Shown here: positions 28,792 to 45,667 of the stretch, in pieces
Numbering within the stretch: the first letter of the stretch is position 1
Layout of the letters: each line of letters begins with the position of its first letter
IMG/VR virus record: IMGVR_UViG_3300035670_000068
Coordinates: 1 to 64,000 of that record
Source of the DNA: a virus
DNA length: 64,000 nt
Strand: one strand, 5' to 3'
Made by a program: the position numbers and the translations under genes
The notes under the pieces: generated by a model
Seen by the model: the letters and a program-made list of their open reading frames with translations, nothing else
What the model was told of the DNA's origin: nothing
Databases searched by the model: none

Positions 28792-29130
28792 CTATTCCAG
28801 AATCAGCTCCACCACGTCATCCTCCACCACTTCGCGGTAAGTCACCGGAGCGGGCTTGGATGCCGGGTTGAGGATTCTCTTGGCCACAGCCGTTGGCGCT
28901 ACTGTCTGCCTCGCCCGACCATCCCGGATTTCCTTGCCTTCGCGCTCGATCCACCCCTGGTTGACCAGGATTCGAATCGAGCACATCAGCGACTCGCGGG
29001 AGGTCTTGTACGGCAGCCGATCCAGAATCTGCTGGTAGTCGCACCAGCTGACCCAGGCGCCTTTCGCATCGATGTTGCCGGCCATGACGACTTTCATCAG
29101 GGCGGTCTGCTTTCTTGTGAGTGGCTTCAT
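28792..29130 (-). CDS. Winged-HTH protein
   Basis: LTRKQTALM..SRESLMCSIRILVNQGWIER wHTH pattern. Confidence 0.65.
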   Translation of the reverse strand: MKPLTRKQTALMKVVMAGNIDAKGAWVSWCDYQQILDRLPYKTSRESLMCSIRILVNQGWIEREGKEIRDGRARQTVAPTAVAKRILNPASKPAPVTYREVVEDDVVELILE

Positions 29131-30005: not shown

Positions 30006-30318
30006 TGGAACCGCTCTCCGTCGGTTGCAGGCCCTTTTCCAGCTTTGCGACCAGACTCTTGAGACAGTCGATCGCCTCTTGATCACTGATCAAGTCACCG
30101 TCCATGAGCATCGCTTCACCGTCCACCGCGATCACGATCATGCGGTTCGGATCGCCGCCCTCACCGGCAGTCGAAACAGCCAGGTCAGCCATTGCTGCAG
30201 TCAGACCCTTGAAGTCTTCGTCCTTGTACGGGTTGTAAACCGGGGCTTCCTCACCCAGCTGCTCGCGGCCTTTCACCTTGCGGTTCTTGAAGTCCACACG
30301 AATCAGTTCACAGGTCAT
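29998..30318 (-). CDS. Hypothetical protein
   Basis: Coupled within the ParB-ABC-GNAT operon. Confidence 0.65.
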   Translation of the reverse strand: MTCELIRVDFKNRKVKGREQLGEEAPVYNPYKDEDFKGLTAAMADLAVSTAGEGGDPNRMIVIAVDGEAMLMDGDLISDQEAIDCLKSLVAKLEKGLQPTESGSSD

Positions 30319-30952
30319 TTCTTGTCACCATCATTTCGATCTTGTCCTTGAAGCGCTTCTCGACGTAGATCGTCGGCGCCAGCTCTTCCAGGAGGTCTTT
30401 GTGGGTAGTGGCCACGATCAGAGTCGCGCCACACTGTTTTGCGAATTTGCGGACGTTGAAGCCAACGACCTTGGCGGTTGTGCGATCCAGAACGGCGCCG
30501 AACTCGTCAGCGACCCAGACCTTGCAGCCGCTCTCCATGAGCTTCGCGACCCGGAAGCGGTAACGCTGGCCGTCAGACAGCTCGCTCGGCTTGCGGATGA
30601 ACAGGTAGGCGTCGTTCAAGCCGGCCAGGTTCAGGATGCGAATCGCCTCTTCGGTGGTCTTACCCACCTGGTCGATCAGCGGCACTTCCAGGAGCTCAAC
30701 CTTGTCGATATCAGCGACCGGCTGCTCTTCGGCGATCTGCTTGGCCAGCTCTTTCAGCAGCAGGGACTTGCCCGAGCCTGACTGGCCGGTGATGTAGATC
30801 ACGTCGCCCTGGCGAACATCGAGCATCAGGTCGTCGTAGACCGTGAACTCTTTGTCTTCCAGGCCCAGGCCGAACGCTTCTGCGCACTCCAAGACCCGCT
30901 GAGAGCGGGTCACGGTGGTCTTGAACGACTTGCGGATCAGGTAGCTGCTCAC
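30308..30952 (-). CDS. Stand-alone ABC ATPase
   Basis: GQSGSGKS, signature LSDGQ, VADEF, TTH; no permease nearby. Confidence 0.9.
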   Translation of the reverse strand: MSSYLIRKSFKTTVTRSQRVLECAEAFGLGLEDKEFTVYDDLMLDVRQGDVIYITGQSGSGKSLLLKELAKQIAEEQPVADIDKVELLEVPLIDQVGKTTEEAIRILNLAGLNDAYLFIRKPSELSDGQRYRFRVAKLMESGCKVWVADEFGAVLDRTTAKVVGFNVRKFAKQCGATLIVATTHKDLLEELAPTIYVEKRFKDKIEMMVTRNDL

Positions 30953-31641
30953 GCCTCACCCCCAGCGAACTGGCCGGCGAATACGGTCAGAGCCTCGGCA
31001 CCCTGCAGGCCTGTTTCAGCCTCGATGATCGCGACGAACTTCTTGACCAGGCGAGCCTGCTCGCTGGTGAAGCTGGCGAAGCCCAGGACTTTGCCGACCG
31101 GGACAGAAGACTTGTCGGACTGCTCGATCTCGGTGGCGGTGCGCTCGGTCTGCTCGATCACTTCTGCGGAAATGTCATCGCTCAGCGCGCCAAGGTCGAT
31201 CTCGCCCAGGTCGTCGATGGCGAAGTTCAGATCGCGCTCGTCGAAGAACTTGGACATATCGAAGTCCAGGTCCAGCACCAGCTCGCGCAGTTCCTCGGAC
31301 AGCAGGCCTGTGTCGTAACCGCCCTCTTGGACCTTGTTGTCGATCAGGCGGAGGGCTCGGGCTTGCTCCTTCGTGATGCCTTTCAGCACCAGCACCGGGA
31401 CTTCGCCCTTCGGGTCAATCGAGATCGCTGCCAGGCGGCGACCATGACCGGCGATGATCGTGCCGTCTTCTTCAACGACGATGCGGGTGATCCAGCCGTT
31501 CTGGCGAATCGACTCTGCGATCTTGGCCACCTGCTTGGGCTCATGCTTCTTGGCGTTCTTCTCATACGGAATGAGCCTGGACACCGACCAGGTTTCTTCG
31601 GAGCGGACGATGCCGCTGAAATCAGTCGAAGTGGTTGCCAT
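30949..31641 (-). CDS. ParB N-terminal (Srx-like) domain protein
   Basis: PYEKNAKKH..IAESI..IIAGHGRRLAA..DNK. Confidence 0.85.
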   Translation of the reverse strand: MATTSTDFSGIVRSEETWSVSRLIPYEKNAKKHEPKQVAKIAESIRQNGWITRIVVEEDGTIIAGHGRRLAAISIDPKGEVPVLVLKGITKEQARALRLIDNKVQEGGYDTGLLSEELRELVLDLDFDMSKFFDERDLNFAIDDLGEIDLGALSDDISAEVIEQTERTATEIEQSDKSSVPVGKVLGFASFTSEQARLVKKFVAIIEAETGLQGAEALTVFAGQFAGGEA

Positions 31642-31798
31642 CAAAATCAAGTTCCATGCTGGTGAAGTCTTCGGTCGATTCCCAGGTCAGGTCACGATCC
31701 GGGTTCAGCGGGCGCACCCGCTCGGGCTTTTCCCGTTTCAGGCGCTCGCAGGCCTCTTCAACGGGGTTCAGTGCGATGTGAGGTCTTTCTTTCGGCAT
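31622..31798 (-). CDS. Small hypothetical protein (58 aa, not in ORF track)
   Basis: MPKERPHIALNPVEEACERL..GNHFD fills the gap between the two ParB genes. Confidence 0.45.
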   Translation of the reverse strand: MPKERPHIALNPVEEACERLKREKPERVRPLNPDRDLTWESTEDFTSMELDFDGNHFD

Positions 31799-31812
31799 AG
31801 GTAACTAACCGA

Positions 31813-32571
31813 TTAGTGAGACGAAAGCAGAAGATGAACCAGCGCATCGCCGTCGTTGGTCATATCGTCGGACTCCATGAAGCCCTGCTCGGCGCGGACC
31901 TTCTTGACGATCTCGCCGATCTTGGCTGCGTCCTCAACCGACACGCGGAAGCGGATGATCTGGTGGGTTCGAGTTGCAGCACCAGCGCCCAGGTCGATGG
32001 CAGCGCCCTTCTCTTCCTCGTCGTCGCCCAGGATCGAGTCGATCTCGACCTCGACTTTCTCGGCGGTGAGGTGGGAGAAGTAGCCGGCCAGCTCTTCCTC
32101 GTCGATGGGCATGGTCATCAGCAGCTCTTCGGCGCTGCCGATCTCCGGGTCTTGCAGCAGCGCAGAGAAGCGCAGCGCGTCGTCGGAGCCGTAGCGGAAG
32201 TTGTCGATCAGAGTCTCGCGCTTGGCGTCGGCATCGCTGATCTTGCCGCGATTGATAACCGGCACTCGGTCGTAGCCCAGAGAGATAGCCGCCATCGTGC
32301 GGTGCTGGCCGCCGATGATTTCCAGGGAGCCGTCTTCCAGGGTGCGAACCACGATGGGCCGCTTGATCCCGTCTTTCTGGATCGATGCCTCCAGCTTGAG
32401 CTGGTTGATCGGGTCCACGATGTTCGGGTTCCAGGGGTTCGGACGCAGGTCTTTCGGGTTGACCTCTTCCACCTGCATATCGTTGTACGCCAGTGGCAGG
32501 TCAGCCGGGGTCAGACCACCCGAGTTCAGGAATGCGTCCAGGTCTTCCAGGTCAGAAAAATCAGTGTTCAT
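31813..32571 (-). CDS. ParB N-terminal domain protein
   Basis: LRPNPWNPN..PIVVR..IIGGQHRTMAA. Confidence 0.85.
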   Translation of the reverse strand: MNTDFSDLEDLDAFLNSGGLTPADLPLAYNDMQVEEVNPKDLRPNPWNPNIVDPINQLKLEASIQKDGIKRPIVVRTLEDGSLEIIGGQHRTMAAISLGYDRVPVINRGKISDADAKRETLIDNFRYGSDDALRFSALLQDPEIGSAEELLMTMPIDEEELAGYFSHLTAEKVEVEIDSILGDDEEEKGAAIDLGAGAATRTHQIIRFRVSVEDAAKIGEIVKKVRAEQGFMESDDMTNDGDALVHLLLSSH

Positions 32572-32651
32572 TGAATTGCCTTGTTGGTGAACTTAACTAA
32601 CCACATAGTTATGCTAGAATAACTCTTGACAGTGTTAATCGGAAGTGTTCC

Positions 32652-34343
32652 ATGTCCAAATTCGTCAAGATTGTGTTCAACCCGGTCATCGCAGCCCTGG
32701 TTGAGCCAGATCGTGATGCCAAGCTCCTGGTCAACGATCTTCTGACCTACAAGATCGAGACCGGCATGAAGGGCATGGGCGTAGCTCACGGCTCGATGTT
32801 CGATATGAACAAGTGCCGTTTCCCGACAGGCTTCGTTCGCCTGGTCACGAAGAAGCTCGAAGGCGCCGGGTATCGTGTGCAGGTGGTTGGTAAGCCCGCT
32901 CCTGAACCTGCAGGCCCGTCCAACCCGGTTGTTGACTCGAACGCGCCGGACCCGCGCTACGACTATCAAGAAGAGACGATGAATCGTCTGGTCGTGCTCA
33001 AGCGCATGATTGCCCAGATCGCAACGGGCGGCGGTAAGTCTCGCACGTTCAAGCTGTGCTGCGAGCGCATCGCCCTCCCCACTCTGTTCCTGACCACTCG
33101 CAAGTCGCTGATGTACCAGATGGCTGCCGGCTATCGAACTGTGAAGTCTGGCCGCCCCGTTGGATTTATCGGTGACGGCCACTGGAAGCCCGAGCCGACC
33201 GGCGTGAACTTCGCCATCGTCGATACCCTGGTTTCTCGTCTTGAGGTCTGCTCTTTCGAGAGCGAGCTGGACAAGGCCGTCACCAAGCACGTCGAGGCGG
33301 TCGAGAAAGAAGTCCAGGCCGCGCTCAAGCGATTCAAGCTGCCGACGAACCCATCGACTCTGCGTCACGCCGACAAGGACACTCTGGCCAAGATCGCCAG
33401 CGTGAGATCGCGCGTGGAGCTTGCGAAGAAGCTCGACGAGAAGGCTCTTCAGGAGAAGATCAAGCGTAAGGTCGAAAAGCAGCAGGCTATTCGCGAAGAA
33501 ACTCTGCAGTTTCTGGCTCAGGTCGGATTCTTGTGCCTCGAAGAAGCGCACGAAGTCTCCGGTCAGGGCTTCTTCGATCTCTGCAACTCGATGCCGAACG
33601 CCCACTACCGCCTGGCTCTGACCGCAACCCCATTCATGAAGGACAGCGAAGAGGCTAATCTGCGCCTCATGGCGGTCACTGGAACGATCGGCATCAAGGT
33701 CAGCGAGAAAGACCTGATCGACCGGGGCATCTTGGCCAAGCCTTACTTCATGATCATGCCGTCGAAGCGCCCAGATGGAGTTTTGCGGGGAACCGCTTGG
33801 CAGGCCGCCTACGAACGCGGAATCGTCTCCAACACGGGCCGCAACATGCAGATCGTCCAGGCTGTTCAGATGGCCCGGCGTTATGGTCTGACCGCGATCA
33901 TCCTGGTGCAGCGAACCAAGCACGGCGAAGAGCTCAAGACCCTACTCAGCAACATCGGCGCTCGAACCGACTTCATCTACGGCGAGAACGAGCAGTCTGA
34001 GCGTCAGGCCGCCCTGGACAAGCTCGGCGCCGGCGAGATCGATGTGCTGATCGGCACCACAATTCTCGACGTTGGTGTGGACTGCCCATCTGTCGGCATG
34101 GTGATTCTCGCCGGTGGCGGCAAAGCAGAAGTGGCTCAGCGCCAGCGAATCGGTCGCGGCCTGCGTGCGAAGAAGTCCGGCCCCAACGTCTGCTTTGTGG
34201 TCGACTTCGACGATGTGTGGAACAACCACACTCACGGCCACTCGGTCGAGCGTCGCAGGATTATCGAATCGACGCCTGGGTTCGCCGAGAACATCGTCCC
34301 CTACTTCGATTTCGAAGGATTGGGCTTCAAGAGAGCCGCCTAA
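32652..34343 (+). CDS. SF2 (UvsW/DEAD-like) helicase
   Basis: ATGGGKS, EEAH, TATP, DVGVD, QRIGRGLR. Confidence 0.92.
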   Translation: MSKFVKIVFNPVIAALVEPDRDAKLLVNDLLTYKIETGMKGMGVAHGSMFDMNKCRFPTGFVRLVTKKLEGAGYRVQVVGKPAPEPAGPSNPVVDSNAPDPRYDYQEETMNRLVVLKRMIAQIATGGGKSRTFKLCCERIALPTLFLTTRKSLMYQMAAGYRTVKSGRPVGFIGDGHWKPEPTGVNFAIVDTLVSRLEVCSFESELDKAVTKHVEAVEKEVQAALKRFKLPTNPSTLRHADKDTLAKIASVRSRVELAKKLDEKALQEKIKRKVEKQQAIREETLQFLAQVGFLCLEEAHEVSGQGFFDLCNSMPNAHYRLALTATPFMKDSEEANLRLMAVTGTIGIKVSEKDLIDRGILAKPYFMIMPSKRPDGVLRGTAWQAAYERGIVSNTGRNMQIVQAVQMARRYGLTAIILVQRTKHGEELKTLLSNIGARTDFIYGENEQSERQAALDKLGAGEIDVLIGTTILDVGVDCPSVGMVILAGGGKAEVAQRQRIGRGLRAKKSGPNVCFVVDFDDVWNNHTHGHSVERRRIIESTPGFAENIVPYFDFEGLGFKRAA

Positions 34344-34485
34344 TAGCCCACGAATACCCCACGAATGCGGGGTTTTTGTTGGTGAATCAAAAAAATCTCA
34401 AAAAAGCTGTTGCATACCCGAGAGTCGCTGTGTAAATTTTGCATCGTGTTCAGTAAGCAGTTAGTTAGCGAAGACGGAGACAGCG

Positions 34486-35022
34486 ATGAAGTTCTATGTG
34501 GGCTGCGGCTCTACAGAAGCTCCACCGCAAATCCTCAAGCTGATGTGCAAGCTGGCAGCTCTGATGGATCAACGAGGGTTCACCCTCAGAACCTCAGAGC
34601 AACCTGGGCCGGATGAAGCGTTCAGGCAAGGATCGGGCGGTAAGTTCTTCACCTACCTGGCCGATCAGGACTTCGAAGGGAAAAGCGTGTGGGGTATCCC
34701 CGCCGACATAACCTTCGGTGGAGCACGCTCGGTCCTTGCCCGAAAGCTGAACCCGATGTTTGTGATGCTCCCGGATAGCGAAAAGCGCTGGGAGATCGTA
34801 GCGAATCAGGTGCTGCTCGGTAGCTCAGGCGACGACCTCGCGAAGCTGCTGATTACTTGGACAAAGGACGGCGCGACGAAGCCTGCAGAGTTCACCGAGA
34901 ACACTGGCAACGTCGCAAGGTATCTGAAACTGGCTGATCGCTTCGGCGTGCCGGTGATGAATCTGGCCCGTCGAGATCACCGGGACAAGGCGCTGTCTTG
35001 GCTTGGGTTGAAAAGTAAGTAA
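34486..35022 (+). CDS. SLOG/DprA-like protein
   Basis: YVGCGSTEAP..LRTS..GPDEAF..QVLLG..WTKDG..VPVMNL; degenerate SLOG motifs. Confidence 0.55.
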   Translation: MKFYVGCGSTEAPPQILKLMCKLAALMDQRGFTLRTSEQPGPDEAFRQGSGGKFFTYLADQDFEGKSVWGIPADITFGGARSVLARKLNPMFVMLPDSEKRWEIVANQVLLGSSGDDLAKLLITWTKDGATKPAEFTENTGNVARYLKLADRFGVPVMNLARRDHRDKALSWLGLKSK

Positions 35023-35048
35023 CCGCTTAAATAGAAGGAAAATGTCTC

Positions 35049-35483
35049 ATGCTGGGCAAACTGTTTGGTAAAGGTCGCGAAGCTCGTGCTGCTGTGGCCA
35101 AGCTGGAAAACCGCGACATGATGCAAGCTGCTGTCTACGGCTGCTTCTACGTCGCCTCCGCCGATGGCGAGATCGAAGCTGCAGAGCTGGCGAAGGTCGA
35201 GTCTCTGCTGCGCAACAACCCGGCTCTGTCCGCCTTCGGCGTCGAGCTGAGCAAGGTCATCGATCAGGCCAAAGCTGACTTCCAGGAAGGCGGCGCCCGC
35301 ATCATCCGCATGAACGCCGAGCGCGAGCTGGCTGATCTGGCTCACGATCCGAAGTCTGCCGAAACCGTCCTCAACTTCATGCTGACCGTCTCCGAAGCGG
35401 ACGGCGAGATCGAGGACGCCGAAATGCACGCCCTGGAGCGCGCTGCCGGCAAGATGAACCTGCGTCTCAAGGACTACCTGTGA
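35049..35483 (+). CDS. TerB-family protein
   Basis: Two ADGEIE..E motifs. Confidence 0.85.
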   Translation: MLGKLFGKGREARAAVAKLENRDMMQAAVYGCFYVASADGEIEAAELAKVESLLRNNPALSAFGVELSKVIDQAKADFQEGGARIIRMNAERELADLAHDPKSAETVLNFMLTVSEADGEIEDAEMHALERAAGKMNLRLKDYL

Positions 35484-35734
35484 TCAACAAGATCGCCGGT
35501 GTGTTCGGCACGAAGTTCACCGAGAAGGGTAAGCGGTTCGTCAAGGTTCTGCTTATCGTCTGGGCGCTCTTCATGGTCGTCAGCTTCGTAGCAACCCGGC
35601 TCTTCGCCTGGGGCGTCTGCGAGTGGTACGGCAGTGAGACGGGTCGTGAAGTTCGCTACGCAACCTTCATCGGTTGCATGGTGAAAGTGAACGATACCTG
35701 GGTGCCGCGAAACGAACTTCGCATCGTGCAGTGA
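35480..35734 (+). CDS. Small membrane protein
   Basis: One TM segment; GTGA overlap with TerB-like gene. Confidence 0.65.
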   Translation: MINKIAGVFGTKFTEKGKRFVKVLLIVWALFMVVSFVATRLFAWGVCEWYGSETGREVRYATFIGCMVKVNDTWVPRNELRIVQ

Positions 35735-35766
35735 CGGTTTCGAGCCTTTGTCCGCAACAAAGGCTC

Positions 35767-35839
35767 CATCTGAAAACCTACTGGCTGCTCAAAAGGGCTT
35801 GCCATGACCCGGACTCCACAGTCAGTAGGTTTTCAGATG
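35767..35839 (+). other. 21-bp stem-loop abutting tRNA-Asn
   Basis: CATCTGAAAACCTACTGGCTG pairs with CAGTCAGTAGGTTTTCAGATG (one G-U). Confidence 0.7.
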
Positions 35840-35840
35840 T

Positions 35841-35917
35841 TGGTGCGTAGCTCAGTTGGTAGTAGCAGGTGACTGTTAATCACCAGGTCGAAGGTTCGAG
35901 CCCTTCCGCACCAGCCA
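35841..35917 (+). tRNA. tRNA-Asn(GTT)
   Basis: Cloverleaf, GGTGA-CTGTTAA-TCACC, GTTCGA, encoded CCA. Confidence 0.93.
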
Positions 35918-35929
35918 GTTTGTTTTTGC

Positions 35930-36006
35930 CGGCGCATAGCTCAACTGGACAGAGCATCGGGCTTCTATCCCGTTGGTTGTAGGTTCGAGTCCTACTGCGT
36001 CGGCCA
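35930..36006 (+). tRNA. tRNA-Arg(TCT)
   Basis: Cloverleaf, CGGG-CTTCTAT-CCCG, GTTCGA, CCA. Confidence 0.9.
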
Positions 36007-36021
36007 CTTGAGATAGAGAGG

Positions 36022-36210
36022 TTGAAGATGGAAGTGTTGTCTGGCGGTATCGCCACTCTGATGAACGCGCACGACGCCTATAGCGTCAACGCCCCGATTC
36101 ACGAAGCGGAAGGCAATCATGAGCAGGCTCAGTTCTGCCGCGATATGGCTGCCGACCTGCAGCTTTCCATCGTTGCTCTCAAGATGGTTCAGAGTTCCGA
36201 GCCGGTATAG
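36022..36210 (+). CDS. Small hypothetical protein within tRNA cluster
   Basis: SD GAGG; ORF end overlaps tRNA-Thr 5' end. Confidence 0.55.
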   Translation: MKMEVLSGGIATLMNAHDAYSVNAPIHEAEGNHEQAQFCRDMAADLQLSIVALKMVQSSEPV

Positions 36211-36276
36211 CTCAGTTGGTAGAGCAGCTGCTTTGTAAGCAGAGGGTCGTGGGTTCGAAACCTACTGCCGGCACCA
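36201..36276 (+). tRNA. tRNA-Thr(TGT)
   Basis: Cloverleaf, CTGC-TTTGTAA-GCAG, CCA. Confidence 0.93.
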
Positions 36277-36283
36277 GAGCAAT

Positions 36284-36359
36284 GCGTAGGTAGCTCAAAT
36301 GGGAGAGCGACGGATTCCAAATCCGTTGGTTGGTGGTTCGACTCCATCCCTGCGCGCCA
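36284..36359 (+). tRNA. tRNA-Trp(CCA)
   Basis: Cloverleaf, ACGGA-TTCCAAA-TCCGT, CCA. Confidence 0.9.
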
Positions 36360-36360
36360 G

Positions 36361-36800
36361 ACACCCCTGACCGGGTGGCCCTGAAAGACCTGGATGACTA
36401 CAGGTATCGCTCAGGCTGATGCAGTCGCCCCGAGGGGCTTTCAGCAAGAGAGTGGGCAGTCGAGCGTAAAGCCGCTCAATGCGGAAGGTGAGCTTCCTTA
36501 TCCGAAAGGACGACCGTGGCGACGGGCAACGCAACCCTCCTGGCCGGGTAAAAGACCAGGAAGAGCAACTGCGGTACGTTCGTGGCTGGTGTCATGAGTC
36601 TGCTAGGGTAAGGTGGCTTTCGTGCCGAGCCCAACGTGCAGAGCCGGCCTGCCACCACGAATGAAGGGCGTTTTTTCTCCTTTTACGCCCGAGCAAAGGC
36701 CGGCTACCTCCTGACCTGTCGCCCCGGCAGGAACGAAACTCGCGGGGCTTCCCAGCCCTGGTCTGACACCTCACCCAATCGTCAGACCAGGGCTTTTTTC
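36361..36800 (+). ncRNA. Candidate large structured ncRNA
   Basis: Nested helices and short-loop hairpins, no credible ORF, ends in terminator. Confidence 0.55.
36754..36799 (+). terminator. Intrinsic terminator
   Basis: AGCCCTGGTCTGAC..GTCAGACCAGGGCT followed by a T run. Confidence 0.75.
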
Positions 36801-36968: not shown

Positions 36969-37442
36969 TCATACGAACCCCCAGCTCTCGATATCGAAGG
37001 TCTTGATGCGACCACCAGAGAAGCAGTCCAGCTCGCAGGCCACCTTGACCGCTTCGGTAGCAGACTTGCCCAGAGACATTGCTGCCATCGCGAAGTCTGT
37101 ACCGCTACCGATGGCCACCGGGCTCTCAGTCGGCATGGGGACCAGACGATGCTCCAGGACGAACGCTTCGCCAGTCTCCAGGATCAGCAGGCCGCTCATT
37201 TCACCCGGCTCGAACTCGGGGATCATTTCGCAGTCGTGCAGATCGTTGCCTTCCAGGTGCTTCTTGAGCAGCAGGATCGACTCGTAGCTGCCGGCGCCAG
37301 CGAGAACAGCTTTAACTTCGACACCGTTGGCGCGAGTGACCAGCGGGAAAATCTTCTGGGTGGACTTGGCTGAGATCAGGTTGCCGAGCGTTGCGCGACC
37401 ATCAGCGGCCAGGAACTGTCCGTCGAATGCGACTGTGGTCAT
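36969..37442 (-). CDS. HslV/proteasome-beta-like Ntn protease
   Basis: M-T-T N-terminus, AADGRAT, AIGSG..AMAAM, D.FSGG. Confidence 0.85.
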   Translation of the reverse strand: MTTVAFDGQFLAADGRATLGNLISAKSTQKIFPLVTRANGVEVKAVLAGAGSYESILLLKKHLEGNDLHDCEMIPEFEPGEMSGLLILETGEAFVLEHRLVPMPTESPVAIGSGTDFAMAAMSLGKSATEAVKVACELDCFSGGRIKTFDIESWGFV

Positions 37443-37684
37443 CAGAAGCCCTCCGGGCAGGCGACAGCGCGAGTGATCGCCATGAAGCCCTTCTGCAGAT
37501 CGGTCGTGCCGATGCTCAGCCAGCGCATATCGATCTGGTGTCCGCCAGTTTGGTAGTGAGTCGCTTCCAGGTAGGTGATCAGGTCTTTCACCTCCTGGGC
37601 CTTGGCCTTGATCTTGTTGATGCAATCGATCTCGTCCTCGGTCAGATCGCGATAGCCCTTGATCAGACGATGCTGATTATCCAT
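37442..37684 (-). CDS. acb2: Anti-CBASS cyclic-oligonucleotide sponge Acb2
   Basis: MDNQH..IKGYRDL..EID..N..K and RWL.IG.TD.Q.G.MAI.RA.A.P..F match the Acb2 pattern. Confidence 0.9.
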   Translation of the reverse strand: MDNQHRLIKGYRDLTEDEIDCINKIKAKAQEVKDLITYLEATHYQTGGHQIDMRWLSIGTTDLQKGFMAITRAVACPEGF

Positions 37685-39693: not shown

Positions 39694-40102
39694 GTTTGTC
39701 TACCTTCTTGAACAACGTCGGACTGATGGTTTCTTCGCCATTGGTGATCGTCTGAAAGCCTTTGCCTAGCAGGTGATCACGCAGACGATGGTTGTTGATC
39801 GACTCGACCACTACAGCGTCGTAACCCCGGAGGCGAGCGAGCATCTTCAGGTTCTCCAGCAGCTCTTTGAAAATGCTCTGGCTTCTGCGACGAGGGTCTA
39901 CCTCAATGGTCGCTATCGTGATCACCTTCAGCATTTCGCCCTTGCACATGCGAACCTGAGCCCGAGCGTAGAGGTTGATCGGCGCGTAGCAGAGCCATCC
40001 AGACTTGGACGAGAAGTAGTTCTTGGCGCTTATGTCGTCGATCATCTGCTCCACATTGCGAACGATGAACCCGATAGCGCCTTTGGCTTCCAGATCAATC
40101 AT
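39683..40102 (-). CDS. GNAT-fold protein
   Basis: IATIEVDPRRRSQSIFK..VESINN. Confidence 0.65.
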   Translation of the reverse strand: MIDLEAKGAIGFIVRNVEQMIDDISAKNYFSSKSGWLCYAPINLYARAQVRMCKGEMLKVITIATIEVDPRRRSQSIFKELLENLKMLARLRGYDAVVVESINNHRLRDHLLGKGFQTITNGEETISPTLFKKVDKHDL

Positions 40103-40406
40103 GTTTGCTCACCAACCTGTAGATATCCTGCTCGTACAGCGAGTTCGGATAAATCGCTTCGCCCTGAGCCAGACAAGTGTGTATATCGCGCAGCAGCTCA
40201 AGCGCCTTTTCCAGCGTGACTCTCGCCGGTTCCTGGCTCAGCTTGTTGATCTTGCCCTTGAGTCTGGCGATCTCAGCCTTCTGTTCGAAGATTAGCTCCT
40301 GGTCACGCGCCCAAGCCGCTTGCGCTGTTTCGAGAGTGTTGGGAGCTTGTTCGCCACGCGCAAACTGAGCGCTATGTGCTCGCCAATCGATTGGTTTGTC
40401 GGTCAT
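40095..40406 (-). CDS. Hypothetical protein
   Basis: Coupled ORF with coiled coil. Confidence 0.6.
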   Translation of the reverse strand: MTDKPIDWRAHSAQFARGEQAPNTLETAQAAWARDQELIFEQKAEIARLKGKINKLSQEPARVTLEKALELLRDIHTCLAQGEAIYPNSLYEQDIYRLVSKHD

Positions 40407-40627
40407 GGCAGTTCCTCAAAGTGGTCTGAGTGAAGCATGTAACGGTTAAGCGACCCTTCGACCTCGACAGCCCAGAAGTCCTCCGAATCGATGTAATCGC
40501 TATCGCTGACCCAGGTGATTTTGGTTTCAGCAGCGCACTTGGCGTCTTCCTCAGAAGTGACCAAACCCCCTCTCCAGCCCTCCCGTGAGAGCTTTACGCG
40601 CTGACCTACAAATGGCTTGCTCTTCAC
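40403..40627 (-). CDS. Hypothetical protein
   Basis: GTGA and ATGA overlaps. Confidence 0.6.
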   Translation of the reverse strand: MKSKPFVGQRVKLSREGWRGGLVTSEEDAKCAAETKITWVSDSDYIDSEDFWAVEVEGSLNRYMLHSDHFEELP

Positions 40628-40836
40628 GACAGGTACTCCATAGCAGCGTCGTAAACGGCAGCGGCGTCTTTGCCCGCTTGGACGACTGCTTCGCGAAGCG
40701 CGGCGTCGTCCAATGGGTCGAGATCGCCTTTTGCCACCATGTTCGTCACGATCTCAGTGGCTATCTCGCGTATCCGCTTGGTGCGCTCGTTTGCTTTCTG
40801 TTTGGCAATCGCCGGCTCAATCCAACTATCGTCCAT
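40624..40836 (-). CDS. Hypothetical protein
   Basis: SD GGAG. Confidence 0.6.
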   Translation of the reverse strand: MDDSWIEPAIAKQKANERTKRIREIATEIVTNMVAKGDLDPLDDAALREAVVQAGKDAAAVYDAAMEYLS

Positions 40837-41105
40837 TTTGCTTACTCCGCTTGGTTGTGAAAGGTTAGCTCCGTAGCCCGCTCTCCCCTATTCCCGTTTT
40901 CGTCGTGACTCCCGGCAGTCCCATAACCCGTAGGTTGTGTAAGGGGTGAGGTTCTAGATTCCTCCTGCCGGCTGTGTAAGGACGACTTCCGGGTATTCGG
41001 CTCGCAGGCTCCTGTAGGGCCAGACTGTTAAACTTTTTTCTAAGACTTTGACACTTTGCATATATGCGCAAGTGTTCTAGATTCACACTCGCATATATAC
41101 ATATA

Positions 41106-41285
41106 TTATTGTTCGATAATATCATTCATCGCTTTAATATATAACTTCGCGCTTATTGCTTTAAGTGCGCGCATTTTCATCAGCTCAAACAATTGCGCTG
41201 CAACTTCAAACGATACAACTTTAACGCGATACTTCGTACTAACAATTACGCAGTCAGCGTTAATAACTCGAATATTGATGCTCAT
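41106..41285 (-). CDS. 59-aa Gly/Pro/Trp-free protein (not in ORF track)
   Basis: MSINIRVINADCVIVSTKYRVKVVSFEVAAQLFELMKMRALKAISAKLYIKAMNDIIEQ; GG-free SD-like GAGAG. Confidence 0.6.
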   Translation of the reverse strand: MSINIRVINADCVIVSTKYRVKVVSFEVAAQLFELMKMRALKAISAKLYIKAMNDIIEQ

Positions 41286-41312
41286 ATATAATCTCTCGCT
41301 TATTTAATTATA

Positions 41313-41349
41313 TATCTAGTGAGTTAGCTATTAACTAACTCACTAGATA
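41313..41349. repeat. 15-bp perfect inverted repeat with 7-bp spacer
   Basis: TATCTAGTGAGTTAG-ctattaa-CTAACTCACTAGATA. Confidence 0.85.
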
Positions 41350-41358
41350 GTGTACAAG

Positions 41359-41904
41359 TTACTTGCTGTAAACTTCGAGCAATGCTTTCAGAAACGCATT
41401 GCTATAATCGAAAGTTACTTTCTTATCACTTGCGCTGTACTGCGCGAAGCTAAAGAACTGAGCGAAAGTCTTAAAGTAGCTTGCTTGCGTCAGCGTTTCG
41501 TGCTGCATCTCGCGCTTGATCTGTTCGAGCGTCAAGCTAGCGTCGTGCTTTGCTGCGAGTCGCTGCAGCAGCGCGTCAAGCGCTTTGTCGCGTACTCGCG
41601 CAGAGTGCGCGACAGCTTCGAGCATTGCGATAGAACGCTTCTTACACTCGCGCGACTGCTGAGCGAGCTGCTTAGCGTCGAGCTTGTGCGAGTGCAGCAG
41701 CGCTAGCGCTTTTTCGCTCATATCTGCGAGCGCTTGAGTGTAAGTCTCGTGAGTGTGAGCGCGCTTTGCTGTTTTAGTGAGTGCGTCGCGCTCTTCTTGA
41801 GCTTCGACACTTTCGAGCTTTTGCAGCGCTTCATTTTTAACGCTTTCGTGCTCGTTAGCAGCTACAGCGAAAACATTCTTGATTGCTTCGATTGCTTTAG
41901 TCAT
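41359..41904 (-). CDS. 181-aa Gly/Pro/Trp-free helical protein
   Basis: MTKAIEAIK..LLEVYSK; SD-like AAGAGAGAG; upstream in-frame extension in the ORF track is probably UTR/promoter. Confidence 0.8.
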   Translation of the reverse strand: MTKAIEAIKNVFAVAANEHESVKNEALQKLESVEAQEERDALTKTAKRAHTHETYTQALADMSEKALALLHSHKLDAKQLAQQSRECKKRSIAMLEAVAHSARVRDKALDALLQRLAAKHDASLTLEQIKREMQHETLTQASYFKTFAQFFSFAQYSASDKKVTFDYSNAFLKALLEVYSK

Positions 41905-42073
41905 GATTTTTCTCTCTCTTGAAAATTGCGCTTTTTGCGCTATTGATTTAAGTTTGATTTTCTTTGCTTCATTGTGCGCGACAGACTGCGCGCAGATAAA
42001 GCATCGATCTAGATTGTTAAAGAGCGTCGAGCTTTTCAGCTCTAGAGAGTGTGTTTCGTCTCTCTTGATGCAC

Positions 42074-42240
42074 AGTTTACAGCGTACAGGAACAGCGTCA
42101 AGCGTTTTTTGAGAAAAAATAGAATTTTTTCGACTTTTTTTAGTGCTCAAAAAATGATCAGTTTTGACTATCTATTACATGCGCGCACGCGAGTAGGACA
42201 GCTAGAAAAGTCTGTCAAGCGTTTTTTGTGCAAAATAGAA
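42074..42240 (-). promoter_or_regulatory. Tandem sigma70-like promoters with A/T-tract UP elements
   Basis: TTGACG(42101-42096)-16 nt-TAAACT(42079-42074); second TTGACA at 42218-42213 with weak -10; shared GTCAAGCGTTTTTTG repeat. Confidence 0.6.
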
Positions 42241-42271
42241 AATTCGCAAAAGTCAAGAAGATTTTTTTGGG

Positions 42272-42391
42272 TGAGGATCATCCGCATCGGCGGGCCGTCC
42301 GCACTTGAGGAACTCCCACGGATAAGGAAGGACCACGGTTGAGGATGATCCGCATCCGGGTCCACAGCCGTGGGTGAGGACGATCCGCATC
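42272..42391 (+). repeat. Three 17-bp iteron-like direct repeats TGAGGAYSATCCGCATC
   Basis: 42272-42288, 42340-42356, 42375-42391. Confidence 0.85.
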
Positions 42392-42603
42392 CGCAGCCAA
42401 GGGCGATCCTCAACCGAGGATCAGCCGTGGTGGTATGGCGCTCCCGCCACGGGGCTTGTTCATCCGGCAGCCTTATACCTAAAGGCCGCCATAGGAAAAT
42501 TCCTGGGCCACGGCTATCCCTATATAGGCGCTATGGAAACTCCCACGGTGACTCCCGGACTGACAAAAGAGCAGCTGCGGTGAACAACTGCTCTTGGCTG
42601 TGA

Positions 42604-42840
42604 TCAGTATTCAGCGGTCATGCTGACGAGATCATGGGGATCGTCTTGGTAGTAGTCGTCGAACAGCTTGGCGATAGCTCGCTCTTTGTCGGTGAGCACA
42701 ACAAACGGTCGTTCGTTCAGGTGCTCAGAGAAGACTTGAAAGTTGGCAGACGGGATGTGCTCGATGCGGCGTTCGACGATCTCGACGGTCAGCATGTCGG
42801 TGGATTCGTCGTACTGGACTACGGTGATTTCGTTTTTCAT
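42604..42840 (-). CDS. 78-aa acidic Gly/Trp-free protein
   Basis: SD-like GAGAG, upstream TAAAAT -10; no GG on coding strand. Confidence 0.75.
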   Translation of the reverse strand: MKNEITVVQYDESTDMLTVEIVERRIEHIPSANFQVFSEHLNERPFVVLTDKERAIAKLFDDYYQDDPHDLVSMTAEY

Positions 42841-43075
42841 CTGGTTTCGATCTCTCGGTCTGTTCAGCGTCGAAGTGCGCTGAATCAGAGCGCATTTTAT
42901 CGTGCTGAGAACGGCAAGAGACGGCTCCTAAGCGTTTAGACGAGCTCACCCACGGGTTTTCTCAAACCTCGCTCAAAACGGCTTATAGAGCGTTCTAGAG
43001 GGGTATGCGCGTGGCCGGAATCCGGTGGACTGGACCTTACACGCGCATGGCCTGGTTTATATGGACTGGACCTGG

Positions 43076-43360
43076 TTAGACCAGCTCTTCCAGGCGAACC
43101 GACTTCTTGGACGGTGCTCGGGTCTGGAAGTCTTCCTGAGAAACGGGCTTGTACGTCCCGGCTTCGAGCTCGGCCAGGTATTTTTCCCATTCAGCTTGCT
43201 TGAGGTTGGCGGGTTTCTTACCAGGCTTCTGGTTCAGGATGGGCTTGATGTTTTCAGGGCTGGCGTAGCGGGTGACCTCCCCGCCGTAAATCTGCTCGTA
43301 GCGCTCGGTTTCGTGAGCGAGCATGGCGCGTAGTGCTTCTTTGCTCATGGCTTTACTCAT
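43076..43360 (-). CDS. Hypothetical protein
   Basis: SD GGGAG. Confidence 0.65.
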   Translation of the reverse strand: MSKAMSKEALRAMLAHETERYEQIYGGEVTRYASPENIKPILNQKPGKKPANLKQAEWEKYLAELEAGTYKPVSQEDFQTRAPSKKSVRLEELV

Positions 43361-43561
43361 GGTTGAAGACTCCCGTTTGGTTTAGCTGATTCATCTGGCA
43401 GCGTCTAGCGCGCTGCTCAGACTTGAGTCTATCAACTATCTAACGGGCTAGTGAGTCTTGCGTAACTAAGCCCTTAGTGCTACCGGGTGCCAAGGGAGCC
43501 GTGGTGTGCCGTGGGTAAGCCTGCTCAAAAGAGAGCACCGTTGTAGGCGCTCTCCGGTAGA

Positions 43562-43798
43562 TCACTGACCAAAAACAGCCGCTGCTGGTTCGATTCGGCC
43601 GTAGTCTATGTCGGCAGCCCAGCACTGAATCTTGCCGTTCACATAGTTCACCGCTTCTTGCAGATTGGTGAACGTCTCATGATCCACCAGCTCGTTGATT
43701 TCGCTGTACTGGTGAAAGTCGTACAAGCCGTTTGCTTTCAAGGTGATCTCGAACAGATCACCCATGAAGTTGGCCTTGAAGATAACCATGTTTGCCAT
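43562..43798 (-). CDS. Hypothetical protein
   Basis: Start MANMVIF with GAGAG SD-like sequence. Confidence 0.65.
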   Translation of the reverse strand: MANMVIFKANFMGDLFEITLKANGLYDFHQYSEINELVDHETFTNLQEAVNYVNGKIQCWAADIDYGRIEPAAAVFGQ

Positions 43799-44878
43799 TT
43801 TTGCTTCTCTCGTCAGTGCAGCCTCTAGCGTGCTGCTCGACTTGTATTGTCTCAACTGACAAGCGGCATGAGCTGGCTCCCGGAGAGTGGTAACTGGCTA
43901 GCCGTGGTGCAGCCGTGGGTGAGCCTTATCCTGGGTAGACCTTGGTTCTGCCGTGGCGATGATCCGGGATTTACCGAGTGCCTACTGGTAAGCCGTGGTG
44001 CAGCCTATTCAGGTAGTGCCGTGGCTCACCAGGACTGCCAAGGTGTGCCTTGGAGCTGCCACGGTTGCCGTGGGTATTTCTACGGCAGCGCCTAACCGTG
44101 GCTAATTGGAAACCCAGCCTTATATATAAAAGGCCCTATGGAAAAATTCCCGCGCATGTACATGCCGTGGCGTGTATAGGCAAAAAAATAGCCCGATTAG
44201 AGGGGTTAGCTCTAACCGGGCTCAACAGTCAGTGGTTCGGGGAGACTGACTGAAACGAGAGGGAGGGTATTACAGCGCGCCCCCTGCCTGGCGCTGAAAC
44301 CGTTTAGCTGAGCTTGTTCCTGATCTTGACCAGTTCCCGGTGGCAATCGATCAGCTTGAACCAGACCAGTAGTAAGACTATTACACCAAGAGCCACTGGA
44401 ACCATTTTGCGACCTATCTCTTTAGGTGCAGACTGGTTAAAAATCTAACCAGTCTATACTCAATCTTTTAGCCAGCTGACTGACGTTCTGTCTGTCTCGC
44501 TGCTCAGTTACTAGAACTATACAGACTGACTAGAGGCTGATCTTGTCTGCCAGGTAGGTAGAACTGTAATTCCAGAGGCATTACTACAGGTTGCCGTGGC
44601 AAAGGATAGAAACCACAACCAGACCAATCTAGTCTCGTACCTGTGTGTACCAGCGCACCCGTGGCCGGAATCTCATGGACTGGACCAAGCCTGGTAGCCA
44701 AGGACCGATGGACTCCTGTTCTGGTGAATGGGAGAGCGGTTAGAACGAGAGCGGGCTGCCGGGTGGTGTAAGAAAAGTTTTAGAACGGCTGAACGCACGA
44801 TGATTTGAATACAACCACCCCACCAATCTTTACTCTTACCTATTACACATCCCCTCTATGGTTCTCCATTTCCTTCCC

Positions 44879-45178
44879 CTATACCCAACCGTCTCTCTTT
44901 ACCAGATTCGTTTCATCCTCTAGCCATACGAAGCTAACCTCTCCTGGTGTTCTCTCACTAGGCATTGGTTGTCTCATATAGGGCGGAGGCTCAATTTCTA
45001 TTGCTGTGCATTGGGTAAGGTGCTTTACCTCTATTGGGTTTGTGACGCCTATGAGGTGCAGCCACAGATTGTCGTCGCTGTCTTGTCCTATGTAGCCGAT
45101 CTTCCAGTCGTGGTACTGGTTGAGCATGATCCAGTAGTGCTTACCGGCTTCAAGGTTCTCTTGCTTGAGTATGTTCAT
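44879..45178 (-). CDS. Hypothetical protein
   Basis: Last ORF of the 47.9-44.9 kb operon. Confidence 0.6.
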   Translation of the reverse strand: MNILKQENLEAGKHYWIMLNQYHDWKIGYIGQDSDDNLWLHLIGVTNPIEVKHLTQCTAIEIEPPPYMRQPMPSERTPGEVSFVWLEDETNLVKRDGWV

Positions 45179-45205
45179 TGGCGTGGTTCTTCTATCTCTA
45201 TGGTT

Positions 45206-45667
45206 TCAGACTGCTGCGTACCGGATCAGGTCGAATGCACGCTTCTCGTATTCACCTAACTGCTTGTAGGTTTCCCATGCTTGGGTAACTGTAGTAATCG
45301 GCGGCTCGTACATTTTGCGCATGATCTCTTTTTGGGAGTGAGACAGTCCTTCCCACCAATCCATTGCCAGTTCGTATTCTGGGTGCATGGAGTCAGCCAG
45401 GAGCTCTTCCATTGTTGCTTCACCCGGACCTCTGTGGGCATCGATGATCTCGAACATCTTTTCCATCGTCATGGGTTGAGAAGGCTGATTGGAGGTGAGC
45501 TTGTATTGATAGGTAGAACCGGGCTTGATTGTTCCTTGTCCTGAGCTTGAGAACGACAGGCTGCCTACGATCTCTTCCATGATCGGGATGATCATGTCCT
45601 TGTATTGGCTATCTATGTCGAAATCGATTGAGAGGTTCAGGACGATCCGGTTCTGGTTATCGGTCAT
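45206..45667 (-). CDS. Hypothetical protein
   Basis: Start MTDNQ at ATGA overlap. Confidence 0.65.
   Translation of the reverse strand: MTDNQNRIVLNLSIDFDIDSQYKDMIIPIMEEIVGSLSFSSSGQGTIKPGSTYQYKLTSNQPSQPMTMEKMFEIIDAHRGPGEATMEELLADSMHPEYELAMDWWEGLSHSQKEIMRKMYEPPITTVTQAWETYKQLGEYEKRAFDLIRYAAV

What the first reader, a model, noticed from the sequence alone, without database searches (positions are those of the whole stretch)
41022..42281. 1.07-kb island with no GG or CC dinucleotide, encoding two Gly/Pro/Trp-free proteins
Seen: 41022-42088 has no GG or CC on either strand, although the core (about 41450-41850) is not AT-rich and is full of CG/GC. The + strand has no CC until 42282. Both genes (41359-41904, 181 aa; 41106-41285, 59 aa) lack exactly the residues whose codons force GG or CC (Gly, Pro, Trp). 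Even their ribosome-binding sites are GG-free (GAGAGAG/GAGAG). Boundaries with the CC/GG-rich flanks are sharp. Established: the type I-F CRISPR PAM is CC/GG, and ParB-terminase loci carry DNA-modifying enzymes. Inference: selection on the DNA dinucleotide overrides protein composition. Three models fit. (a) Virion DNA is modified at CC/GG in a transcription-blocking way, and this cassette stays unmodified so it can be expressed first (e.g. eraser, host takeover, second-step injection). (b) It is a PAM-free, restriction-site-poor refuge for anti-defence genes. (c) It escapes a GG/CC-specific nuclease or deaminase. I do not know of a described system like this.
Basis: partly seen in the sequence, partly recalled or inferred. 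Interest (0 to 1): 0.95.

Follow-up and report, generated by a model that had tools for sequence, protein, structure and literature searches.

The report
GG/CC-free immediate-early phage gene island
A group of ~110-kb Pseudomonas phages keeps one ~1-kb, first-expressed gene cassette completely free of the dinucleotides GG and CC, so its proteins lack glycine, proline and tryptophan; this points to an unidentified factor that acts on GG/CC early in infection.

Summary
Window 41022-42088 has no GG or CC on either strand, where about 100 are expected. The next longest gap in the 110,316-bp genome is 107 bp. Every complete relative examined has exactly one such island, at the ortholog of the 181-aa gene. 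This includes the cultured Pseudomonas syringae phages nickie, hairong and Nican01. Orthologs are saturated at third codon positions yet still carry 0 GG/CC, and codon order itself avoids junction GG/CC. So purifying selection acts on the nucleic acid, not on protein composition.

The island is a transcription module. Two tandem sigma70-type promoters with A-tracts, unique in the genome, are followed by a winged-helix protein, then variable orphan small ORFs, then a conserved downstream promoter whose inferred start marks the island's edge.

New complications: a neighbouring unit avoids GG only on the sense strand, the genome's densest GG/CC stretch abuts the island, palindromes are not avoided, and no known DNA-modification enzyme family was found.

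Best reading (about 0.35): an immediate-early cassette kept free of targets of a CC-keyed, transcription-blocking DNA lesion or mark. The rivals are type I-F PAM avoidance and an RNA-level GG constraint. The mechanism is unresolved. The scan had also flagged this same stretch from another window of this genome.

The parts
41022..42088 (.). Core island: no GG or CC on either strand
   Evidence: a 1069-bp gap where about 100 GG/CC are expected; it is the only such gap in the 110-kb genome.
41359..41904 (-). Gene A, 181 aa, free of Gly/Pro/Trp. N-terminal long helical hairpin plus C-terminal winged helix; a putative DNA-binding regulator.
   Evidence: 18 homologs at 50-100% identity, 17 with no Gly/Pro/Trp and one with a single Gly. 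AlphaFold2 pLDDT 94.9. Residues 103-181 align to TubR, ArsR, MarR and SarA winged helices at Z 7-8, rmsd 2.4 A. No Pfam, PHROG or NCBIfam hit.
41106..41285 (-). Gene B, 59 aa, free of Gly/Pro/Trp; occupies the variable cargo slot
   Evidence: Its only relative is in L003 (59% identity over 34 aa). Other phages carry unrelated Gly/Pro/Trp-free ORFs of 73-110 aa in this slot. No family hits.
41313..41349 (.). 13-bp-stem palindrome between genes A and B (attenuator or operator candidate)
   Evidence: Self-match on the opposite strand; sequence.
42074..42107 (-). Promoter P1: A-tract, TTGACG, 16-nt spacer, TAAACT. The island's upstream edge lies in its spacer.
42190..42224 (-). Promoter P2: second copy of AAAAAACGCTTGAC[AG]. 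The motif occurs only twice in the genome.
   Evidence: Relatives have 2-4 comparable CGCTTGCA promoters.
42090..42282 (-). Promoter zone: sense strand has 0 GG and only 4 CC
41026..41054 (-). Conserved downstream promoter-like element P3 (GTGTCA, then AAGTCTTAGA..., then TTAACA). Its inferred start coincides with the island's downstream edge.
   Evidence: Alignment of nine loci. GG/CC resumes within about 10 nt after the -10 box in eight of the nine loci; the most distant, L009, lacks the element.
40860..41021 (-). GG/CC-rich leader after P3, holding GGCCCTAC and two CCTTACACA repeats
   Evidence: this flank is at the 98.5th percentile of GG/CC density.
42556..42927 (-). U78 unit (promoter, 78-aa gene at 42604-42840, intrinsic terminator). 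Sense strand has 0 GG but 25 CC.
   Evidence: Its homolog in L003 is also GG-free on the sense strand; the Nican01 homolog is partly so.
42283..42555 (.). Spacer with the highest GG/CC density in the genome; CCGTGG/CCACGG and GATCCGCATC repeats
40953..42999 (.). Five of the genome's seven TCTAGA sites (40953, 41076, 42008, 42041, 42994); candidate operators

Best explanation
The island is the immediate-early expression module of a clade of virulent ~110-kb Pseudomonas siphophages (Nickievirus and metagenomic relatives). Tandem strong host-RNA-polymerase promoters drive a winged-helix regulator (gene A) and one or two interchangeable small orphan proteins. Gene A probably acts at the TCTAGA sites clustered around these promoters. 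The small proteins are likely host-takeover or anti-defence cargo. The module ends where the next promoter's transcript begins.

The GG/CC exclusion is kept by purifying selection on the nucleic acid. My preferred mechanism is that the CC dinucleotide (GG on the complement) is the target of a DNA-level activity that leaves a transcription-blocking lesion or mark, such as a nick or a base modification. This activity could come from the host (a defence), from the phage (host shut-off), or be pre-installed on virion DNA. DNA that host polymerase must read first therefore cannot contain CC on the template strand. In the core it cannot contain CC on either strand. The logic matches phage T5's first-step-transfer region, where only target sites in the pre-early DNA matter.

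Shown here: the exclusion, its conservation, its nucleotide-level nature, the promoter-like anatomy and the winged-helix fold. Inferred: immediate-early timing, the regulatory role of gene A, the anti-host role of the cargo, and the existence and nature of the CC-keyed agent.
For: - One island per genome, always at the gene A ortholog, in four whole genomes and three cultured phages.
- Third-codon-position identity between orthologs is 33-51%, yet the coding sequence has 0 GG/CC in seven of nine orthologs (1 in L004, 3 in L003).
- Codon junctions avoid GG/CC (0 of 2000 shuffles).
- Unrelated cargo ORFs all obey the rule.
- The promoter motif with A-tract occurs only twice in the genome, both times reading into the island. 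Relatives have 2-4 such promoters.
- The downstream edge falls at the inferred start site of a conserved promoter in eight of the nine aligned loci.
- The neighbouring U78 unit lacks GG only on its sense strand, that is, CC only on its template strand. This holds exactly from promoter to terminator, which fits a transcription-linked cost.
- Relatives show a graded state (about 5-fold, about 2-fold and no depletion), which fits a per-site cost rather than all-or-none cutting.
- Precedent: T5-like phages resist restriction-modification, CRISPR and Ssp systems unless the sites lie in the first-step-transfer DNA (PMC10644984).
- Precedent: dinucleotide-keyed defence exists, since CmdT modifies GA in RNA (PMC11618068).
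Against: - No candidate enzyme was found. C5 and N4/N6 methyltransferases, TGT/DpdA, PAPS reductase and DndB families are absent.
- If the mark is on virion DNA, the phage's own replication genes, which are rich in GG/CC, would also be blocked.
- In nickie, a 326-bp upstream zone has 1 GG and 22 CC on the gene-A-sense strand, although its only plausible ORF lies on the other strand. The asymmetry therefore does not follow each local gene.
- Immediate-early timing is inferred from promoter-like sequences only.
- Genome termini and the order of DNA entry could not be determined; only contigs were available.
- T5's first-step-transfer DNA and the T7 early region show nothing comparable (maximum gaps 87 and 81 bp).
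Confidence: 0.35

Rival explanations
1. RNA-level constraint. Transcripts made at the very start of infection must contain no GG, because a GG-recognising RNA factor would inactivate them. Candidates are an endoribonuclease, an RNA-modifying defence enzyme of the CmdT kind, or an RsmA/anti-Shine-Dalgarno type binder. The core also lacks CC because both of its strands are transcribed.
For: - The U78 unit is GG-free only in the sense strand, from promoter to just past its terminator, with normal CC.
- The sense-GG-free zone of the island begins upstream of the tandem promoters and reaches further than the CC-free zone in all relatives.
- Ribosome-binding sites are degraded to GAGAG.
- In L009 a divergent Gly/Pro/Trp-free gene sits inside the depleted zone, so both strands can serve as template.
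- A promoter-like site on the + strand at 41082-41109 reads antisense into the island.
- CmdT shows that dinucleotide-specific RNA targeting exists (PMC11618068).
Against: - GG and CC are excluded with equal stringency in the core.
- No conserved antisense promoter was found in relatives.
- Nickie's upstream zone is GG-free on the strand opposite to its only plausible gene.
- No known factor recognises bare GG.
Confidence: 0.2
2. Type I-F CRISPR avoidance. The island is purged of the CC PAM on both strands so that the first-acting genes cannot be targeted or yield spacers.
For: - The excluded motif is exactly the I-F PAM on both strands.
- Mild genome-wide CC depletion is reported for P. aeruginosa phages targeted by I-F (PMC12174588).
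- T5 is hit by CRISPR only in first-step-transfer DNA (PMC10644984).
- The layout of strong promoter, HTH protein and variable small ORFs resembles acr-aca operons (own knowledge).
- A graded depletion in relatives fits a per-PAM risk.
Against: - The genome's most PAM-dense 200 bp lies directly upstream of the island in G000 and G003, and about 420 bp upstream of the depleted zone in G005. The downstream leader is also PAM-rich. Cas2/3 is processive (own knowledge), so a 1-kb PAM-free patch protects nothing unless it is alone in the cell.
- PAM logic is strand-symmetric and does not explain U78.
- The cultured hosts are P. syringae, which is not among the CRISPR-bearing species listed in PMC10379622.
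Confidence: 0.15
3. No specific GG/CC-reading factor exists. The pattern would be a by-product of optimising the cassette for speed (no Shine-Dalgarno-like or pause motifs, no slow Gly/Pro codons), or of a local mutational bias such as deamination at CC.
For: AG/CT dinucleotides are enriched (observed/expected 1.37 and 1.24). The island's GC content is 44% against 57% for the genome.
Against: - GC and CG are strongly enriched (2.28 and 1.65), and the gene core keeps 50-60% GC. Together these indicate compensating selection rather than decay.
- The exclusion is absolute, covers non-coding parts and codon junctions, and has sharp edges at regulatory signals.
- Speed optimisation would not remove every GG and CC on both strands.
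Confidence: 0.05
4. Assembly chimera, synthetic insert or sequencing artefact.
For: None. The 127-bp end repeat is probably only an assembler overlap.
Against: The same feature, with diverged sequence, occurs in independent metagenomes and in five independently sequenced cultured phages. Contigs from other studies cover the island.
Confidence: 0.01

Closest known systems
Phage T5 first-step-transfer (pre-early) region
   Same: A short block of small pre-early genes behind strong host promoters. Restriction-modification, CRISPR and Ssp systems only succeed if their sites lie in this DNA (PMC10644984). How this DNA survives the phage-induced destruction of host DNA is unknown (PMC10644984).
   Different: T5's region is 10 kb, lies in a terminal repeat and enters the cell alone. 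It shows no GG/CC exclusion (maximum gap 87 bp). The island here is about 1 kb, its position relative to the virion ends is unknown, and no A1, A2 or dmp homologs were found.
Phage T7 leading end (promoters A1-A3, then gene 0.3 ocr)
   Same: Tandem strong host promoters followed by the first-expressed small genes; neighbouring early genes share their orientation.
   Different: T7 has no dinucleotide exclusion (maximum gap 81 bp). Gene A is a winged-helix protein, not a DNA mimic. A convergent + strand helicase-tRNA operon follows about 5 kb downstream.
Genome-wide CC (type I-F PAM) depletion in P. aeruginosa phages (PMC12174588); motif depletion in phages of CRISPR hosts (PMC4246573)
   Same: The same dinucleotide, the same host genus, and selection on a two-base motif.
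   Different: Those are mild, genome-wide statistical shifts. Here the purge is total, local and sharply bounded, it reshapes protein composition, and it sits beside the most CC/GG-dense DNA of the genome.
acr-aca anti-CRISPR operons (own knowledge)
   Same: A strong early promoter, a conserved HTH protein and variable small orphan genes.
   Different: The gene order is reversed, with the HTH gene first. No sequence-family link was found. No known acr locus is motif-free to my knowledge.
[quoted passage not shown]
   Same: They show that a defence or toxin can be keyed to a 2-3-nt motif, and that motif-free messages escape it.
   Different: The motifs differ (GA, ACA) and the target is RNA only. 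No natural GG/CC-specific enzyme of this kind is known.

Membership tests
T5-type first-step-transfer region | Lies at the genome end that enters first, bounded by an injection stop signal | not testable with these tools
   All available runs are Logan contigs, with no read starts. The 127-bp end repeat looks like an assembler overlap.
T5-type first-step-transfer region | Strong host-polymerase promoters driving small early genes | tested here: met
   Promoter-like sites with A-tracts. This rests on sequence only; no expression data were available.
T5-type first-step-transfer region | Homologs of A1, A2 or dmp | tested here: not met
   No Pfam, PHROG or NCBIfam hit for genes A, B or U78.
Type I-F PAM avoidance | CC absent on both strands of the protected DNA | tested here: met
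Type I-F PAM avoidance | Adjacent DNA that is co-exposed is also PAM-poor | tested here: not met
   The upstream flank is at the 99.9th and the downstream flank at the 98.5th percentile of GG/CC density.
Type I-F PAM avoidance | Hosts carry type I-F CRISPR-Cas | not tested
   Literature only: P. syringae is not among the carriers listed in PMC10379622. The host of the window phage is unknown.
Restriction-site (palindrome) avoidance | Short palindromes under-represented | tested here: not met
   4-mer palindromes: 128 observed against 105 +/- 8 in shuffles. 6-mers: 33 against 31 +/- 5.
Phage DNA modification systems (methyltransferase, DpdA/TGT, Dnd/Ssp) | A modifying enzyme encoded in the genome | tested here: not met
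   Six-frame searches for PF00145, PF01555, PF01702, PF01507 and PF14072 found nothing, while the control genomes gave hits. Unknown enzyme families cannot be excluded.
Winged-helix DNA-binding proteins (MarR, ArsR, TubR-like), for gene A | Winged-helix fold | tested here: inconclusive
   Residues 103-181 align to many winged-helix regulators at Z 6.6-8.1, rmsd 2.4-3 A. Foldseek probability is 0.9-0.98 but E > 0.1. There is no Pfam hit.
acr-aca operon | Membership of a known Acr or Aca family | tested here: inconclusive
   No PHROG or Pfam hits. No dedicated Acr library was available.

The most novel reading that the evidence does not exclude
Infection by these phages involves a so-far-undescribed activity with bare dinucleotide specificity for CC/GG. 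It could be a nickase, a base-modifying enzyme or a DNA-coating factor, of host, phage or virion origin. It disables or masks essentially all DNA or RNA in the cell. The phage has evolved a motif-free 'safe' cassette that forces three amino acids out of its proteins, so that the first genes can still be read. The GG/CC-densest block beside the cassette would be the loading or decoy site of that activity.
Probability: 0.4. Interest if true: 0.95.

Novelty: new variant of a known kind. Interest (0 to 1): 0.88.

Why it matters
Phage genomes are known to avoid motifs, but only as mild statistical depletion of restriction sites or PAMs. Here a two-base word is removed completely from a kilobase. 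The removal is strong enough to ban Gly, Pro and Trp and to degrade the Shine-Dalgarno sequence, and it has been held through sequence saturation across a phage clade.

That is a direct genomic footprint of a very strong sequence-keyed force acting in the first minutes of infection, and its agent is unknown. Five cultured, non-hazardous P. syringae phages carry the island, so the question can be tested at the bench now. The outcome could be a new defence or host-shut-off enzyme with dinucleotide specificity, a new DNA mark, or the first case of complete local PAM erasure. The island also supplies natural Gly/Pro/Trp-free folded proteins and a search rule (dinucleotide-free islands) for finding first-expressed anti-host genes in other phages.

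Tried and rejected
- Sequencing runs: 20 holders, all Logan contigs and no RNA holder listed, so there is no information on termini, strand or expression.
- The metagenome-contig scan gave only 2 loci. The genome-contig scan gave none. A scan with the remote Gly/Pro/Trp-free clade (alignment A2) gave none.
- megablast of the region against GenBank phages found no match.
- Rfam found nothing meaningful in 40000-45500.
- The ESM Atlas gave no useful hit for gene A.
- Foldseek against PDB gave no match at E <= 0.001.
- Pfam and PHROGs gave nothing for the cargo ORFs or U78.
- DarT1 as a GG-specific ssDNA modifier was rejected because it has no consensus motif (PMC11543638).
- Phosphorothioation (GpsG/CpsC contexts, own knowledge) was considered because ParB_N and ABC-type ATPase genes sit near the terminase. 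No DndC/SspD-type or DndB family was found.
- Cumulative GC skew was uninformative.
- The idea that contig ends mark a physical terminus upstream of the island was dropped: the L006 record has end repeats, and only one fragment (L007) starts there.
- A comparative gene-content screen of island-bearing against island-lacking genomes yielded only an SF2 helicase (32652-34343, + strand) and small ORFs. The island-lacking genomes are too distant for this to carry weight. The 451-aa minus-strand ORF is a shadow of the helicase gene.
- Cas3 directionality as an explanation for the strand asymmetry was rejected because the spacer between U78 and the island is full of CC on the relevant strand.
Full report
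**Observation.** On the + strand of the window, the last CC before the island is at 41020-41021 and the next GG is at 42089-42090. Between them there is no GG or CC on either strand, a gap of 1069 bp. The window is the first 64 kb of a 110,316-bp IMG/VR virus record with 56.6% GC. Over the whole record, the next longest GG/CC gaps are 107, 89 and 73 bp. No other complementary dinucleotide class shows anything comparable. The island's own base composition predicts about 49 GG and 53 CC. The 127-bp end repeat is also present in relatives and looks like an assembler overlap.

**Who carries it.** The portal protein and the 181-aa protein place the genome next to the genus Nickievirus. These are virulent ~112-kb siphoviruses of Pseudomonas syringae: nickie, hairong, phiK7B1, ZY21 and Nican01. 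They are more distantly related to SSU5-like elements. The published descriptions of these phages that I could read do not mention the feature.

The 181-aa protein (gene A) has 18 homologs at 50-100% identity in the 5.8-billion-protein set. Seventeen lack Gly, Pro and Trp entirely, and one has a single Gly. I could fetch DNA for nine related loci.
- L004-L009, nickie and hairong have GG/CC-free islands of 659-1490 bp at the ortholog.
- L003 has an island of about 890 bp with 2-3 leaks.
- Nican01 has gaps of 1083 bp (GG) and 1171 bp (CC).
- In four complete genomes the island is the single outlier of its kind.

Third-codon-position identity between the window's gene A and its orthologs is only 33-51%, which is near saturation. 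Even so, each ortholog has 0 GG/CC in its coding sequence, except L003 (3) and L004 (1).

**The constraint acts on nucleotides.** Shuffling gene A's own synonymous codons among positions creates on average 14 GG and 5.5 CC at codon junctions, and none of 2000 shuffles reached the observed zero. Recoding the same protein with the genome's codon usage gives 23 GG and 30 CC. Non-coding parts are also free of the motif. GC and CG are enriched 2.3-fold and 1.65-fold, and the gene core keeps 50-60% GC. This pattern indicates selection that preserves G+C content while avoiding two words. It is not what mutational decay would leave.

The slot after gene A holds unrelated small ORFs in different phages (59, 73, 99+110, and 100-108 aa). 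All of them lack Gly, Pro and Trp. None has a Pfam or PHROG match. The rule therefore belongs to the DNA segment, not to one protein family.

**Anatomy.** Two near-identical sigma70-type promoters read into the island from upstream, on the minus strand. P1 is at 42074-42107 and P2 at 42190-42224. Each has an A-tract followed by CGCTTGAC[AG], and this motif occurs nowhere else in the genome. Relatives carry 2-4 comparable promoters, preceded by a strong terminator that closes the upstream operon.

Gene A folds with pLDDT 94.9 into a long helical hairpin plus a C-terminal winged helix. Residues 103-181 align to TubR, ArsR, MarR and SarA domains at Z 7-8 and rmsd 2.4 A. Foldseek probabilities are 0.9-0.98 but its E-values exceed 0.1. 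A 13-bp-stem palindrome separates genes A and B.

The downstream edge is marked by a conserved promoter-like element: TTGTCA, then AAGTCTTAGA, then a -10-like hexamer. GG/CC resumes within about 10 nt of that hexamer in eight of the nine aligned loci, beginning with G(G)CCCTAC and 2-4 CCTTACACA repeats. The most distant relative, L009, lacks the element.

Five of the genome's seven TCTAGA sites lie between 40953 and 42994. They sit at P3, in gene A's leader and upstream of the neighbouring unit, which suggests operators. From this I infer, but have not shown, that the island is the immediate-early unit and that gene A regulates it.

**New complications.**
1. The monocistronic unit just upstream (U78, 42556-42927) has 0 GG but 25 CC on its sense strand, from its promoter to just past its terminator. 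About 6.7 GG are expected in the coding sequence alone, and none of 2000 recodings reached zero. Its homolog in L003 behaves the same way, and the Nican01 homolog partly so.
2. In all relatives the sense-GG-free zone reaches further upstream than the CC-free zone.
3. In nickie, a 326-bp upstream zone has 1 GG and 22 CC on the gene-A-sense strand. Its only plausible ORF is a 63-aa membrane protein with its own promoter, on the opposite strand. The asymmetry therefore follows the strand that serves as template for transcription in the gene A direction, not each local mRNA.
4. The densest GG/CC 200-bp window of the whole genome lies directly upstream of the island in G000 and G003, and about 420 bp upstream of the depleted zone in G005. 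In the window it consists of CCGTGG/CCACGG repeats and iterons. Of the genome's 27 CCGTGG/CCACGG copies, 21 lie in 42321-44659.
5. In the wider protein family (45 representatives) the Gly/Pro/Trp-free state is patchy. Parsimony needs 9 changes, and at least 3 are forced by well-supported branches. Remote relatives show graded depletion of about 5-fold (G007), 2-fold (G008) and none (G006). IMG/VR classes G007 and G008 as proviruses.

- Generic restriction avoidance is not supported. Four-base palindromes are, if anything, enriched (128 against 105 +/- 8), and six-base palindromes are as expected.
- A virion DNA mark lacks an enzyme. Six-frame searches found no C5 or N4/N6 methyltransferase, TGT/DpdA, PAPS-reductase or DndB family, while the control genomes scored. 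The ParB_N and ABC-type ATPase genes near the terminase carry no such domain.
- The I-F PAM idea matches the motif exactly, and it has literature support as a selective force on CC in Pseudomonas phages (PMC12174588). However, the flanks are the most PAM-rich DNA of the genome, PAM logic is strand-symmetric, and P. syringae is not listed among CRISPR-bearing Pseudomonas species (PMC10379622).
- The classical first-entering regions show no such island. The maximum gap is 87 bp in the first 14 kb of T5, which includes its first-step-transfer DNA, and 81 bp in T7.

**Interpretation.** I am confident of one thing: a strong, long-lasting selective force removes GG/CC from the first-read module of these phages. 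The identity of the force is open.

I rank highest (0.35) a DNA-level, CC-keyed activity that leaves a transcription-blocking lesion or mark. That model explains three things: why the zone is delimited by transcription signals, why only the template strand is constrained in the accessory unit, and why depletion can be graded. It borrows its logic from T5, where only sites in the pre-early DNA matter and where the survival of that DNA during host-DNA destruction is itself unexplained (PMC10644984).

An RNA-level 'no GG in early transcripts' rule (0.2) explains the asymmetry equally well. It needs antisense transcription to explain the loss of CC, and it conflicts with the nickie zone. I-F PAM erasure (0.15) would need the island to be alone in the cell at the critical moment, which I could not test. 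By-product explanations (0.05) and artefact explanations (0.01) are unlikely.

**Novelty and value.** I found no description of a complete local dinucleotide exclusion in a phage. Known motif depletion is mild and genome-wide (PMC12174588, PMC4246573). I file the finding as an extreme new variant of motif avoidance. There is a substantial chance (about 0.4) that it reports a new kind of dinucleotide-specific activity. Five cultured phages carry the island, so the decisive experiments are straightforward.

Noticed in passing
window 42321-44659: CCGTGG/CCACGG occurs 27 times in the 110-kb genome. Of these, 21 lie in this 2.3-kb stretch of mostly non-coding DNA, leaving only 6 in the remaining ~108 kb. 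This could be an origin, a cos/pac site or a protein-loading site.
   Followed up: partly
window 40953, 41076, 42008, 42041, 42994: Five of the genome's seven TCTAGA sites cluster around the island's promoters and the U78 promoter. They are candidate operators for the winged-helix protein.
   Followed up: partly
window 28443, 40944, 40981; genome 68210; relatives L003-L008: The motif CCTTACACA always lies in sense orientation, with 2-4 copies just after the island and single copies upstream of other gene blocks. It may be a leader or regulatory element.
   Followed up: partly
window 32652-36800 (+ strand): A rightward operon is convergent with the leftward early genes. It holds an SF2 (DEAD/ResIII) helicase of 563 aa, two small ORFs and tRNA-Asn, -Arg(TCT), -Thr and -Trp. 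The 451-aa minus-strand ORF at 32568-33923 is a shadow ORF. The helicase is present in the three island-bearing genomes compared and absent from the three island-lacking ones; this is weak evidence because the latter are distant.
   Followed up: partly
window 29127-32571 (- strand): Two ParB_N-domain proteins (233 and 252 aa) and two ABC-type ATPase-like proteins (319 and 214 aa) sit upstream of the HTH small-terminase-like gene (27591-28292). No modification-enzyme domain was found with them.
   Followed up: partly
L008 9520-9846 (nickie 103611-103937): This zone has 1 GG and 22 CC on the gene-A-sense strand. It holds an opposite-strand 63-aa membrane-protein ORF (CNR34_00145) with its own promoter-like site. 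The strand asymmetry is unexplained.
   Followed up: partly
G007 49.6-50.4 kb; G008 41.5-42.4 kb: Remote gene A homologs in records classed as proviruses sit in the most GG/CC-poor part of their genomes (about 5-fold and 2-fold depleted), but these parts are not free of the motif. This may be a relaxed or incipient state.
   Followed up: partly
window 36969-37625: An HslV-family peptidase homolog (phrog_1040) lies among the early genes.
   Followed up: no
window 41166-42027, against contig X12 record 1: In a wastewater relative, the gene A region is about 92% identical while the neighbouring early genes are diverged or replaced. The island is more conserved than its surroundings.
   Followed up: no
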